Shown: in pieces, positions 46,746-52,038 of the stretch
Numbering within the stretch: the stretch's first letter is position 1
Layout: each line of letters opens with the position of its first letter
NCBI GenBank assembly: GCA_051362555.1
Contig: CM120640.1
Coordinates: 5,084,001 to 5,148,000 of the forward strand
Source of the DNA: Lingula anatina
Taxonomy: Eukaryota > Animalia > Brachiopoda
Direction: 5' to 3'
DNA length: 64,000 nucleotides
Made by a program: the position numbers and the translations under genes
Notes under the pieces: generated by a model
The model's input: the letters and a program-made list of their open reading frames with translations, nothing else
Database searches by the model: none
Told to the model about the DNA's origin: nothing

Positions 46746-49700
46746 ATGGCTGAGGTAAAGAACAAAGATTTGATTCTTGAGACGATCGACCAGCTACGGA
46801 AGCGTAAGGCGAGACCAGACATTGAGCGAATATGTCACATGCTGGGCCGTAAACATGGGCTAAGTTCCGAGGAGATCGAAGCCGACCTAGAAAAGCTGGT
46901 GGACGCCGAGGTCGTGATCAAGGTAGATTACAAAGGCAACTATAGTTATCGCAACGCCGCCAAATGGAGAAAAAGCCACTTAGGAGGGCACGTTTTAAAC
47001 TCTAACGAAGCTAGCCTGAAGATCCAAAAAGCTGTGAGTGCGTTGACTCAGCAAGATGGAGAGGGAAGAAAGGGGGCGGATATTCACGAAATTGAGCAGT
47101 GGATACAGAAACAATATCTCGGGACAGACTCGCATTTAATGAAAAGTCAGCTACAAATAGCCTTGAACAGAGAGGTAGACACTGGATATCTCGAAAAATT
47201 ACCTAATGGGAGATATGTCCGAAGCGGCTCGACGAAAAAAGCAAAGGTTTTGTCAACTGCGTCTCCCACAAATGCGGCCTCCCCTGCGACGGCGCCTCCG
47301 TCATCAGGTGGAAATCCAAAAAGTACTCCAGGAAAATCGGTTACGCCTAGCAAGCGTGGACGGCCTGCTAAGAGAATGGTGCGTATCAGCATACTTTTTA
47401 TAAGATTATTTCAAATAAATCACCTTCATCTAACTGACTACGCAATAGCCGTTTTACTTTCTTTCTCTATGTTCGTTTGACATTTCTCTTTATACCCGTT
47501 TAACATACGATTGTTTCCTTCTTTACATATGCGCCTTTCTGTTTTTCTCTATAACTATGCCCGGCAGCGGGCCACTGAGAATAATACGCTTATATAGATT
47601 TTTCATTCCTCGCTGTATTTACAAGCGCACGTTCATTCATGGAAGCAATGGCAGCCGGTGCATATATGCCATATAGACTCGCGCTCTTTTACAAAACGAT
47701 ACATACTGATACATATCATTTTGGTGGCTTTAATAGCGTCCGTGTCAGATATTTATGGTCCTATCATTTATCTCTAAGAATATTACGATTCCGAAAGTGA
47801 GCCTAAAGTGCGCACGTCCCACACAGAGAACGAACCCATTTAACGCGTAGAATATGAAGGCTTATATTTTGCGCACCTGTGCGGTCGGCGGCGGGACTTT
47901 GTTGATTGAAGCACGGGTTGCATATAAGCCGAAGTAAAACTGCCGCTTAGTGAAATAATAGTGATCCCCCTTGTGTAGGTGAGAACTGCGCGTGATCTAG
48001 GATATAGAAATGCTTTAGGCAGTTCTCCTACTTGTGACCTAACTATCACGCTGACCGAAACTATATGCGGTAGCGGGAATGGTACGTGTAGATGAGAAAA
48101 TGACCGGTGATTAATACAGGCATTTTATTCACTGGCGACGGAAATTAGACGCAGGTTGGTTTAGCATGTTGTATCATTCCTTCCACTTATCTGAATTCAA
48201 GCATGTGCTCATCTTGTACATAAGCGCCTACTGCCATGTATGTTTTTTTAAAACGGGGCGCACGCGATTTACATCTATGATGCGCATCATCATAACAGAC
48301 GCAGTTAAGAACCTTAGTTCCAGGAAGAGGAATATTTGCGTTCAAGGAGTTAACCTTACTGATTCCGTGCATTGTTTTATGTTACAAGTACACATTAAAT
48401 ATTACGTCAGCGGTTAATGTTTTATTAATGAAATGCGGTACAATATAACTTTTCTGGACCTTTATCTATTAATGAATAAAATTTATTCATTTAATGTTTT
48501 GAGGGGTGGAGCGCGTGCAATCAACGGTGTCCACACCTGCGTGCTTTGAAGGAAGAAACTGGACCACCTTGTGTCAGTTTAGAAGAAAGGGTTTGAGAGA
48601 GAGAAAGAGAGAGAGAGAGAAAGAGAGAGAGAGTCACTCATTAATGTTATACCACACCTAACCCCGAGAAAGTAATTTGCGCTTTACGTTAAATCAAATG
48701 GACGTATCGAATGGGGCTTTATTCGCCCTTAATCATATTCTCTTTGTGGTAGTGACAGAAAACCTGGCTAGATATTTTACGCGGTACGGAATAAGTGTTC
48801 ATTGCGTTTTTAATATCCAGCCAACACCATCCATCCTAATGCGAATCCCGCACTAAATTAGATTGGGATGTTCGACCCGGCTATATCAGCTGCAAATGCT
48901 CAATCATGTGGTTGCACGTTACAGTATTCAGTAGCATAGGGCGAACACTGCTTATAGACAGTCGTGTCGGAGTGCGAAAAGTCCACGCCGAAGTCTTGAT
49001 ATTGATCATTAATTTTAACATATCTACTGACGGCGGTGGTATATTGAGTTTTTTTATTTAAAATATGTTTAAAAGATCGACAAATTCATGTTATTTGGGC
49101 CAACATACCATTGTGTTGCATATATGTCGATGTACTGGGATATCATGCATTAATGCGAAAGCAAGGTGGATTAATCAGCTAAGAGTGATCACGATGTCGA
49201 TATTGGCTGTTGAACAATAAACCTGTGCGCACGATTGAATTAAGTTTTTAATTTCAAAGAAAGGGTGGCAGATAAGTGCTTTTGTCCATTTTGATCGATG
49301 GCTGCGTTATGTTATGGAAAAGCGCTATATGTATATATCAGTCTGTAAAATCATGGTGTCATGGAAACTTGTTGTCATCTACTTCTTTTCTAAATATTTT
49401 CACTAAAACATCCCTCTAAAGGTTAGGCTCTCCGTATTGTATGCCATTATAGATAACAACATGTTCCTTTTTTCCCAGCGTTTCAAGAAAAGCCATGGTC
49501 CAGATTTTGAAACTTTTGAGCCAAAAATCAAACACGAGAGGAAAAGTGAAGAGAGGTGTGACTTTTGTCTCCTCCCGCCGGAGTACAACCGACAGGGCGA
49601 GGCTGAGGACCTGCTCGTCTGCAAGGATTGCAGCGCCAAAGGTATTGGGTGGAATATAAAATGATAATTTGATTTTAAAGTGATAAAATTTGTGATTAGC

Positions 49701-52038
49701 ATTATAAGATTTATTATAAAAGAAAAACTTGCCAACTTGCGCTTTACGCAAGAGGAATTTTATAACTACGAGAAATGCAATAAGCGAGACAGCCTGCTCC
49801 AAATATAAAAGAATAAAATTAATAATTTTCAAGCTGTTAAACGTTTTACTGCTAATATAATATTTCTACTTATTTTCACGACAGCACACCCATCATGTAT
49901 GGACTACTCACCAGAACTTGCCCGTCGCGCGAGAAACTCTCCTATTGGCTGGCAGTGCATCGACTGCAAGACCTGCATCGTCTGCGACGACTCCGGGGAT
50001 CCGGTAAATCCAAAAATTCGTCTTGTTACACGTTTCATTATAAAAGTCCGTCTTACATTTTATGTTCTGTATGCTTGATTTTTTAAAACATTCTTTCTTG
50101 CAATAGCTTAAATAATTTTCTCTTTGTCGATATTATTTTCTTGATTTTTTGGACCGTCGTTTTATTGAAAATTACCAAACGTTTCCAACTTTCAGGACAG
50201 CATGCTATTTTGTGACGCTTGCGATAAAGGGTATCACATGAAATGCCACGACCCGCCATTGTCACAGAAACCCAAAGGTAAGGCGTTTTCAGATTAATTA
50301 TCTCTCGAAATGTAATTTTCGTAGCTTACATTGTATACGATAGAGTGTAACTTTATTAATCATTATCAAATATTAATAATAATAAAAATGTGTCTACTTG
50401 GTACCCGTGGAAAGTGCTGAACATTGTAATGGTACCTTTCACCTCTTATTCAACTTATTATATGTGATAATGACATCACTTTAATTAATGATTCTTGTTC
50501 AACTGTAGGCAAATGGGCCTGCACTACTTGTTTAGAGGACGGCGTGGGCAAGGATGTCTTGGGCGCCGCTAGTTCCAGCGAAAGCGAGCGTAACGAGCAG
50601 ACAGGTACGTTTTTGCATGTTCGTTCGTACACCCTTTACAGGTTTTTTTTCGTGATTGCTTAGTCACTGTTTTTATAATCGGTCAGTCATGTCAACAGAT
50701 TGGCGTTCGTCCTTTGTATAGAAGGACCAAAGAGATGAAGCTTAAAAACTAAGATCTAAATACATAACATAATCGTTGTGTTCGTATCGTTTTAGAAGGG
50801 AACGGTCCCTCGTGCCTGCCTACCCCCAGTGACTCGCCAGTGTCAGTGGAGCCGCGCCATAACCAACTTAACCAGGCGGAACAGGTGGTAGCCATGGAAG
50901 TACCGGAGTCGTTTGGCGCAGAGTAAGCACAGGGTTCCTCGCGTTTGAAATATATAACAGGAGAATCCAGCCATGTTGCGCATGTTGTCATGGTGCTCCA
51001 GAAACTGTGTTAATGATCTTCACTTATGAAAATGATTTTGCTACAATGCTCTAGTAACTCCATGGTGTTAATTAATATGTTACGAAGAACTCTACATTGG
51101 TTTTGCAATACGTCAATGTGCCAGGCAGAGGTTTGACATGCAGGCCCCTCCGTTTCGCTTTTTTAAAAAATGCACCATTCGGTAAATAACCATATTTTCT
51201 ATTTTACCAGTTGTAAAGTCATATTCATGTATGACGCTATAGCGCATGAAAACTGAACACTGTAACGCTGACAGCGTTTACTGGATTCAATATAACCGCT
51301 TCCGCATCAAGGACACATGCATGATTATATTTGTGAAGTACTATTCACGTTTTCAGTTCAGTGCAAGCTCCGGCCCAGCTCCCGCTCACAGTGGCCCAGA
51401 CCCCATCTCCGCTGAAAGCGGTGACAGCGGACACAGACGCCGCTGGACAAGACGCATCGCGATGGACCATAGAGGACGTGGCCAAATACTTCAAGAAGGC
51501 GGGCTTCGCAGAGCAGGCGGAATGTTTCGTGGAGCAGGTAAGGAGCGGTTTCGGGGCAGATGAACTTCTCTGGCGCCCCTGGAGAGTTTAAGCTTGCCAT
51601 TTTTGTGTGATTTAAAATAATACCGGATGGATGGGGAGGGCGTTAACTGGACGCGGACGCATTTTTCTTTTATAATTAGGACGTGTACACTGTCGTATGT
51701 TTTTGTTCATCTATTTGAACAAAGCGTAAATATCACGAAAAGGAATATTGTGCGCTCCGTGCTAATGCGGGTACTTATATCAAGTGAAATATTTATCTAG
51801 ACAATTGTATAGTTGGTACGTAATTTACGGTGTTCGCACAGAATGATGACGCCAGAATTGTGTTTCTGTCTCCATAGTGTTCTGCATCACGATGCAAGTT
51901 GTTCATTTTTTTTAGGAAATAGATGGCGCCTCCTTACTGCTGATGAAAAGGAGTGACGTACTCACTGGGCTGTCAATCAAGCTTGGACCCGCCCTCAAAA
52001 TCTACAACCTCATCACACAGCTGCAAACGAACGTGTAA
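46746..52038 (+). CDS. SAMD1/KAT6-related chromatin protein: SAMD1-like winged helix + H15-like winged helix + AT-hook + double PHD finger + C-terminal SAM (507 aa, 8 exons)
   Basis: Exons 46746-47378, 49479-49641, 49885-50003, 50196-50277, 50509-50604, 50796-50922, 51357-51537, 51916-52038 total 1524 nt with consistent phases. [127 protein letters not shown]. Confidence 0.92.
48595..48633. repeat. (GA)n microsatellite, intronic
   Basis: Direct reading. Confidence 0.9.

What the first reader, a model, noticed from the sequence alone, without database searches (positions are those of the whole stretch)
46746..52038. KAT6 reader module fused to a SAMD1-type SAM domain, with no acetyltransferase
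Seen: one clean 8-exon ORF with SAMD1/KAT6-type winged helix, H15-like winged helix, KRGRP AT-hook, double PHD finger and terminal SAM. The DNA between the DPF and SAM exons holds only short linker exons and no MYST sequence. Known: vertebrate KAT6A/B are WH1-WH2(H15)-DPF-MYST, SAMD1 is WH-SAM, their WH binds unmethylated CpG, the DPF reads acylated H3K14/unmodified H3R2, and the SAMD1 SAM polymerises and binds L3MBTL3. Inference: this may be the ancestral SAMD1/SAMD13 architecture linking the two families. It could act as a non-catalytic, polymerising reader of unmethylated CpG plus acetylated H3 that competes with KAT6 at the same sites. Automatic pipelines would probably mislabel it KAT6-like. 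I cannot tell whether it has been described already.
Basis: partly seen in the sequence, partly recalled or inferred. Interest (0 to 1): 0.82.

Follow-up and report, generated by a model that had tools for sequence, protein, structure and literature searches.

The report
Invertebrate ancestor-type SAMD1 chromatin reader
This is a real, spliced brachiopod gene from a widespread but unstudied invertebrate family that databases mislabel as histone acetyltransferases; it is likely the ancestral form of the vertebrate repressors SAMD1/SAMD13, is predicted to bind unmethylated CpG DNA, and likely reads unmodified rather than acetylated histone H3.

Summary
Observation confirmed. An 8-exon, 507-codon gene; all 7 introns are spliced in 8 of 8 RNA runs laid, and the window holds no MYST sequence. 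It matches a Lingula anatina protein misnamed 'histone acetyltransferase KAT6B'. The order is WH1-WH2-double PHD (DPF)-SAM. WH1 and SAM are SAMD1-type (8 of 9 DNA-contact and 14 of 14 polymer-interface residues identical); the DPF and module order are KAT6-like. The architecture runs from coral to insects, flatworms and hemichordates; vertebrate SAMD1/SAMD13 group with deuterostome members (moderate support), lack the DPF, and some keep WH2 as Pfam's 'SAMD1 small helical domain'. This contradicts the printed 'SAMD1 is vertebrate-specific' and likely links it to fly Lint-O (sequence not retrieved). No paper describing the architecture was found. This scan had already noted the same family in two other genomes.

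The parts
46746..52038 (+). Whole coding span, 8 exons, 507 aa, WH1-WH2-DPF-SAM
   Evidence: 98% identical to P0001 of Lingula anatina
46746..47378 (+). Exon 1: WH1, WH2, Pro/Ser linker and basic motif (aa 1-211)
   Evidence: joint 47378/49479 in 8 of 8 runs
46758..46973 (+). WH1, SAMD1-type winged helix; 8 of 9 SAMD1 DNA-contact residues identical (R56 is His)
   Evidence: (SAMD1 6lui E 2.6e-20 vs KAT6A 1.8e-7)
47001..47231 (+). WH2, H1/H5-like winged helix
   Evidence: Pfam Linker_histone E 3e-6; model pLDDT 81; Foldseek rank 1 MORF WH2 8e4v at E 0.022, not significant, rank 2 H1; VIA Z 9.8 to H5, tied with many winged helices
47352..47378 (+). Basic KRGRP motif, AT-hook-like or nuclear-localisation signal (undecided)
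   Evidence: sequence; no Pfam AT-hook hit; conserved in 61 of 105
49548..50537 (+). Double PHD finger over exons 2-5; H3R2 pocket aspartates kept, acyl-pocket Gly replaced by Ala (codon split by intron 2 at 49641/49885)
50813..50839 (+). Conserved LPTP-x-x-SP motif in exon 6, candidate phosphorylation/degron site
   Evidence: 50 of 105 invertebrate and 19 of 40 vertebrate-type proteins vs 0.46 and 0.16 in shuffles; function inferred
51451..52029 (+). SAMD1-type SAM domain over exons 7-8; 14 of 14 named SAMD1 pentamer-interface residues identical
46650..46745 (+). 5' untranslated leader (approximate; reads end near 46668)
52039..52820 (+). 3' untranslated region, AATAAA at 52798

Best explanation
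This is a spliced, expressed Lingula gene for a non-catalytic chromatin protein (WH1-WH2-double PHD-SAM) that is likely the invertebrate pro-orthologue of vertebrate SAMD1/SAMD13 and is predicted to act as a repressive adaptor. Inferred mechanism: WH1 binds unmethylated CpG (major groove through the helix-1 Arg-Lys pair, minor groove through the wing Tyr-Lys, as in SAMD1); WH2 adds sequence-independent contact at the nucleosome dyad, as MORF WH2 does; the DPF docks on the H3 N-terminus with unmodified R2/K4, with weak or lost preference for acyl-K14; the SAM polymerises for avidity and recruits an L(3)mbt/L3MBTL-type MBT protein, with KDM1A likely bound through WH1. Shown: gene structure, expression, domains, conserved residues, family range. 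Inferred: every binding step, and repression. Vertebrates would have lost the DPF and partly kept WH2.
For: Splicing in 8 of 8 runs. WH1 and SAM score far higher on SAMD1 than on KAT6A or other SAMs (profile bits 114 vs 52; 115 vs 65). SAMD1 contact residues R45, K46, R48, Y87, K88 are R 105, K 100, R 105, Y 94 (F 11), K 105 of 105 members; both true KAT6 sequences lack the wing Tyr. SAM interface 14 of 14. 52 of 67 hits and 17 of 23 carry WH1+DPF+SAM; 0 of 221 proteins carry MYST and SAM together. Members named from coral (Montipora), molluscs, annelid, nemertean, bryozoan, flatworms, tardigrade, chelicerates, myriapod, insects, echinoderm, hemichordates; Ciona keeps DPF-SAM. WH1+SAM tree rooted on coral: vertebrate SAMD1+SAMD13 one clade (95/99), grouped with ambulacrarians (86/94). 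An invertebrate-only WH2 profile hits 14 of 40 vertebrate-type proteins, overlapping Pfam SAMD1_SHD in all 13 of those scanned. Shared LPTP motif. D282/D285 equivalents kept in 80 and 85 of 105; G237 equivalent Gly in 0 of 105. Precedent: SAMD1 represses via L3MBTL3 and KDM1A (PMC8115922, PMC11343471); fly Lint-O (two PHD + SAM) represses with L(3)mbt through SAM-SAM contact (PMC9535798). The window shows mosaic CpG depletion (o/e 0.22-0.32 in three neighbouring gene bodies, 1.11 in this gene), so methylated and unmethylated compartments likely exist.
Against: No binding or repression was measured. The deuterostome grouping is not starred, rests on 148 columns, with 6 long-branch rows left out and one long-branch outgroup. 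WH1 alone cannot place the KAT6 root (AU p 0.66 for vertebrates+KAT6 as one side), and only 2 KAT6 sequences were available. The DPF's closeness to KAT6A over PHF10/DPF2/3 is slight (136 vs 134 vs about 123 bits). Ala is small; the cited blocking residues are Phe/Tyr, and the rest of the acyl pocket is largely kept, so acetyl reading may persist. Human SAMD1 needs a mammal-specific Pro/Ala/Arg-rich region for full polymerisation (PMC11969672, passages). Lint-O with 8 PHD cysteines mutated still repressed (PMC9535798). Lint-O itself was not retrieved.
Confidence: 0.62

Rival explanations
1. One reading: the same protein, but the DPF still reads acetylated H3K14, so it sits on active unmethylated CpG-rich promoters and competes with or buffers KAT6.
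For: Most K14-acyl pocket positions are kept or conservatively changed in this protein (F211, C230, W257, C259, I260 identical; I228 to Leu, L242 to Met, S210 to Asp as in DPF1-3); KAT6A DPF is the best structural match; WH1-WH2-DPF alone targets KAT6A to CpG islands (PMC9881136).
Against: G237, described as the most important pocket residue and present in all six human DPFs (PMC7800603, PMC9329655), is Ala/Val/Phe/Tyr/Ser in 105 of 105 members and Gly in both true KAT6 sequences; N235/S236 also differ. No evidence on competition.
Confidence: 0.2
2. The DPF is not chiefly a histone reader but a structural or partner-binding module; targeting is by WH1 plus SAM alone, which is why vertebrates could lose it.
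For: Lint-O 8CA still represses, while deleting the PHDs loses L(3)mbt binding (PMC9535798); insect DPFs are on very long branches; vertebrate SAMD1 works without it.
Against: The acidic H3R2 pocket is kept in about 80% of members, and the DPF is on short branches in brachiopod, chiton, coral and hemichordates.
Confidence: 0.15
3. A truncated KAT6 copy, or an assembly/annotation chimera of a KAT6 5' end and an unrelated SAM gene.
For: Database names call it KAT6A/B-like.
Against: Continuous splicing in 8 of 8 runs; same architecture in over 100 proteins across phyla; WH1 is SAMD1-type, not KAT6-type.
Confidence: 0.02

Closest known systems
Vertebrate SAMD1 (atherin) and SAMD13
   Same: SAMD1-type WH with the CpG-contact residues, SAMD1-type SAM with the pentamer interface, LPTP-type motif before the SAM in fish and shark copies, WH2 remnant (Pfam SAMD1_SHD) in fish and shark copies.
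   Different: This protein has a complete double PHD finger and a well-formed WH2 right behind WH1; vertebrate copies lack the DPF (lamprey record too). SAMD1 is printed as vertebrate-specific (PMC8115922).
Drosophila Lint-O (CG2662)
   Same: Two PHD fingers plus a C-terminal SAM; the paper notes SAMD13 as its BLAST orthologue and doubts it because SAMD13 lacks PHDs (PMC9535798). Other insects have clear members of this family.
   Different: No winged helix is reported for Lint-O (the word does not occur in that paper); its sequence was not retrieved here, so orthology is inferred, not tested.
KAT6A/KAT6B (MOZ/MORF), Enok
   Same: Module order WH1-WH2-DPF; DPF best matches KAT6A; WH2 model's top Foldseek row is MORF WH2 (weak).
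   Different: No C2HC finger or MYST domain, SAM instead; WH1 is SAMD1-type; DPF lacks the G237 pocket glycine.
DPF1-3 and PHF10 (BAF/PBAF subunits)
   Same: Double PHD fold with acidic H3R2 pocket; Asp at the S210 position as in DPF1-3.
   Different: No Requiem domain; carries WH and SAM; lacks the pocket glycine.

Membership tests
SAMD1/SAMD13 | N-terminal SAMD1-type WH with CpG and minor-groove contact residues | tested here: met
   Pfam PF21524 E 1e-30; 8 of 9 contacts identical
SAMD1/SAMD13 | C-terminal SAM of the SAMD1 class with pentamer interface | tested here: met
   best PDB match SAMD1, E 5.7e-21 vs L3MBTL3 3.5e-10; 14 of 14 residues
SAMD1/SAMD13 | Phylogenetic orthology | tested here: met
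   vertebrate clade nested with ambulacrarians at 86/94, unstarred, coral root; the root under KAT6 is unresolved
SAMD1/SAMD13 | Binding to unmethylated CpG, polymerisation, L3MBTL3/KDM1A recruitment, repression | not testable with these tools
   inferred from residue identity only
KAT6 (MYST acetyltransferase) | MYST catalytic domain with its zinc finger | tested here: not met
   no Pfam MOZ_SAS; no tblastn hit in 64 kb; no joint to another exon listed
KAT6 (MYST acetyltransferase) | WH1-WH2-DPF reader module in this order | tested here: met
DPF acyl-lysine readers (KAT6, DPF1-3, PHF10) | Glycine at KAT6A 237 opening the K14-acyl pocket | tested here: not met
   Ala here; Gly in 0 of 105 (PMC7800603, PMC9329655)
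DPF acyl-lysine readers (KAT6, DPF1-3, PHF10) | Acidic PHD2 pocket for unmodified H3R2/K4 (D282, D285, E261, N274) | tested here: met
   Asp at all four positions here; D282/D285 kept in 80 and 85 of 105
Lint-O | Two PHD fingers plus SAM | tested here: met
   vs PMC9535798
Lint-O | Sequence orthology to Drosophila CG2662 | tested here: inconclusive
   beetle-seeded search and Atlas did not return a named dipteran
AT-hook | RGRP core with flanking basic residues matching the Pfam model | tested here: inconclusive
   core present, no Pfam hit at E<=1; strict pattern in 46 of 105

The most novel reading that the evidence does not exclude
Since the cnidarian-bilaterian ancestor, animals have carried a matched pair built on one WH-WH-DPF reader: KAT6, which writes and reads acylated H3 at unmethylated CpG DNA, and this SAM-bearing twin, whose pocket was narrowed (Gly to Ala) so that it reads the un-acylated tail and assembles a repressive MBT polymer on the same DNA. 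The pair would form an acetylation-controlled switch at unmethylated promoters long before CpG islands; vertebrate SAMD1/13 and fly Lint-O would be two reduced descendants.
Probability: 0.3. Interest if true: 0.75.

Novelty: new variant of a known kind. Interest (0 to 1): 0.5.

Why it matters
It pushes the SAMD1 CpG-reading repressor back from 'vertebrate-specific' to at least the coral-bilaterian ancestor, gives a likely answer to the question left open in the Lint-O paper (whether SAMD13 can be its orthologue without PHD fingers), suggests that Pfam's SAMD1 small helical domain is a remnant of the second winged helix, and corrects a widespread 'histone acetyltransferase' label. The family-wide loss of the pocket glycine gives one cheap, decisive test of how a reader module was retuned from activator to repressor. 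It is not a new kind of system, and the architecture is visible to anyone who lists Pfam domains.

Tried and rejected
No whole genome is held, so a separate Lingula KAT6 could not be checked; the longer-protein search gave only two MYST-bearing KAT6 (Hydractinia and an unnamed record) of 23 hits. Lint-O was sought with a beetle DPF-SAM fragment (45 hits, no named dipteran) and in the ESM Atlas (best 0.88). The DPF tree was largely unresolved and had no DPF1-3/PHF10 outgroup. The AU test on the KAT6 root was inconclusive. An alternative THAP first exon, seen in tick and scorpion relatives, was sought here: no tblastn hit at E<=1 in the window, no alternative joint listed. From recall, three DPF introns and the end of the first coding exon match human KAT6A exon borders; a literature search did not confirm these borders, so this is not used. 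The run finder listed no indexed RNA holder; the runs laid were same-species additions. No complex prediction was sent: a SAM homopolymer would pass by likeness to SAMD1 structures. Searches for a prior description: SAMD1+KAT6A+winged helix+invertebrate 0 papers; SAMD1+PHD finger+evolution+winged helix 1 paper; SAMD1+SAMD13 53 papers, 20 listed; (none of 15 listed of 851 contains SAMD1). Subscription journals are mostly not searched, and supplementary figures (e.g. trees in PMC9881136 Fig. 1D/S1, PMC8115922 fig. S1, PMC11969672 fig. S7) were not seen and might show invertebrate sequences.
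Full report
1. Observation. Reading 45500-53500 gave eight exons that join into one 507-codon frame with GT..AG introns and a single terminal stop. Raw RNA reads from 8 of the 9 same-species runs listed show all seven joints in every run, summed 108-235 reads per joint, on the sense strand, with no other joint listed inside the gene. 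The gene 3' of it is on the opposite strand. Two MYST domains find nothing in the 64 kb (best E 0.99) while DPF and SAM controls find the expected exons. The product differs from database protein P0001 (Lingula anatina, named 'histone acetyltransferase KAT6B') only by a 5-residue indel and one substitution; the longer allele shows as loose ends at 47300 in five runs. The DPF and SAM belong to one gene and there is no acetyltransferase.

2. Anatomy. Pfam gives SAMD1_WH, Linker_histone, PHD twice and SAM_1. The AlphaFold model has four confident blocks joined by disordered linkers and matches KAT6A DPF, SAMD1 WH and SAMD1 SAM structures. WH1 is closer to SAMD1 than to KAT6A (E 2.6e-20 vs 1.8e-7). 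Mapping the contacts listed in PMC8115922 (sections 7 and 12 read) onto the alignments, 8 of 9 DNA contacts and 14 of 14 SAM interface residues are identical (13 read off the alignment, the first by spacing). WH2 folds as a winged helix; Foldseek ranks MORF WH2 first and H1 second, both non-significant, and VIA ties H1/H5 with many winged helices. The KRGRP motif is conserved (61 of 105) but has no Pfam AT-hook hit.

3. The DPF pocket. The wild-type and S210D/N235R KAT6A chains fix the numbering. The residues that hold unmodified H3R2 and K4 (D282, D285, E261, N274; PMC7800603, passages) are all Asp here. G237, called the most important residue of the acyl-K14 pocket and present in all six human DPFs (PMC7800603; PMC9329655, passage), is Ala. 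Among 105 stored proteins with WH1, DPF and SAM above score cut-offs it is Ala 83, Val 12, Phe 8, Tyr 1, Ser 1, never Gly; among 160 DPF+SAM proteins 156 were readable and none has Gly. Both MYST-bearing KAT6 sequences have Gly. The set includes near-duplicates, so counts are not independent. Other pocket residues are largely kept (PMC7797077, passages), so acetyl reading is doubtful, not excluded.

4. Family. Of 67 hits to exon 1, 52 carry WH1+DPF+SAM, 28 are named histone acetyltransferase, none has MOZ_SAS. Of 23 longer hits 17 have the architecture, 2 are true KAT6 and 4 are unrelated PHD proteins. The profile search (best 150 of 513 at E<=1e-30 listed) and name look-ups of 30 proteins add coral, bryozoan, nemertean, tardigrade, mites, many insects, and DPF-SAM proteins of Clytia and Ciona. 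No protein of 221 has MYST and SAM together. ESM Atlas holds several such clusters of 63-90 members, auto-named histone acetyltransferase or atherin. Lingula has a second copy (P0003, 54% identical over exon 1).

5. Relation to SAMD1/13 and KAT6. In a WH1+SAM tree of 26 named rows (six long-branch rows left out), rooted on coral, vertebrate SAMD1 and SAMD13 form one clade (95/99) that groups with hemichordate and echinoderm members (86/94, unstarred). A WH2 profile built from invertebrates only hits 14 of 40 vertebrate-type WH-SAM proteins; in the 13 of these scanned with Pfam the hit overlaps SAMD1_SHD. A LPTP-x-x-S/T motif before the SAM is shared (50 of 105 and 19 of 40, vs under 0.5 in shuffles); its spacing recalls FBXW7-type phosphodegrons (recalled, not tested). 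Against over-reading: KAT6 WH1 sits on a long branch, its root position is unresolved (AU p 0.66), the DPF tree is mostly open, and the DPF profile prefers KAT6A to PHF10 only slightly. Whether KAT6 or this family carried the reader module first cannot be told; both occur in cnidarians, though not shown in one species.

6. Mechanism. Best reading: a non-catalytic repressive adaptor that binds unmethylated CpG through WH1, the nucleosome through WH2 (as MORF WH2; PMC9908889, passages) and the unmodified H3 tail through the DPF, and that polymerises and recruits an MBT protein through its SAM, as SAMD1 does with L3MBTL3 and KDM1A (PMC8115922; PMC11343471, passages) and Lint-O with L(3)mbt (PMC9535798, passages and Discussion). 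All binding steps are inferred. The window's CpG pattern (o/e 0.22-0.32 in three neighbouring gene bodies, about 1.1 here) fits a mosaic-methylated genome. Rivals: acetyl reader competing with KAT6 (0.2); DPF as partner-binding module (0.15); artefact (0.02).

7. What is known. PMC8115922 calls SAMD1 vertebrate-specific. PMC9881136 (passages) relates the WH domains of KAT6, SAMD1 and ZMYND11 but does not mention invertebrate SAM-bearing forms in the passages seen. PMC9535798 asks whether SAMD13 is the Lint-O orthologue and doubts it for lack of PHDs; this family removes that objection, but Lint-O was not retrieved. PMC11969672 (passages), PMC8175269 (part 1 of 5 and passages), PMC9451159 (passages) and PMC11438212 (passages) add no description. 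Searches found none; supplements were not seen. After I recorded my reading, the scan's notes showed the same family in two other genomes; these are unchecked and not counted as support.

8. Verdict. Real gene; new variant of a known kind (the SAMD1/SAMD13, probably Lint-O, family with its full ancestral domain set). Ordinary within its family, apparently undescribed in print, with one sharp testable twist at the acyl pocket. Interest 0.5.

Noticed in passing
proteins P0262, P0128, P0127 (Ixodes, Haemaphysalis, Centruroides): THAP-DPF-SAM forms: the Ixodes protein shares its body with the WH form P0043 from about the point that matches the exon 1/2 border here, suggesting an alternative DNA-binding first exon. 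No THAP exon in this window.
   Followed up: partly
window 47300: In-frame 15-nt indel polymorphism in the Pro/Ser linker; the window has the short allele, five RNA runs and P0001 show the long one.
   Followed up: yes
window 36000-52000 versus 25900-35200 and 53300-64000: Sharp switch in CpG observed/expected (about 1.0-1.2 versus 0.2-0.3), the signature of mosaic gene-body methylation; this gene and its 2.1-kb first intron are CpG- and GCGC-rich, a possible autoregulatory target.
   Followed up: partly
protein P0003: Second Lingula anatina copy with the same architecture on another contig; it groups loosely with this gene, and its linker looks mis-predicted.
   Followed up: partly
window 50813-50839: Conserved LPTP-x-x-SP motif shared with shark SAMD13 and fish Samd1; candidate phosphodegron.
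   Followed up: partly
window 52800-57000 (minus strand): Convergent spliced gene, by eye NSMCE1-like (recalled label), whose 3' end approaches this gene's 3' UTR.
   Followed up: no
window 13433-14671, 25900-35200, 40200-42400, 57500-64000: Neighbours that by eye look like a single-exon ZIP zinc transporter, an ATAD2-like AAA/bromodomain gene, a CUB-domain gene and a DDX24-like helicase (recalled labels, not searched).
   Followed up: no
window 8560-8950 and 10700-11190: Two related short tandem-repeat tracts giving open frames on both strands; probably a repeat element.
   Followed up: no
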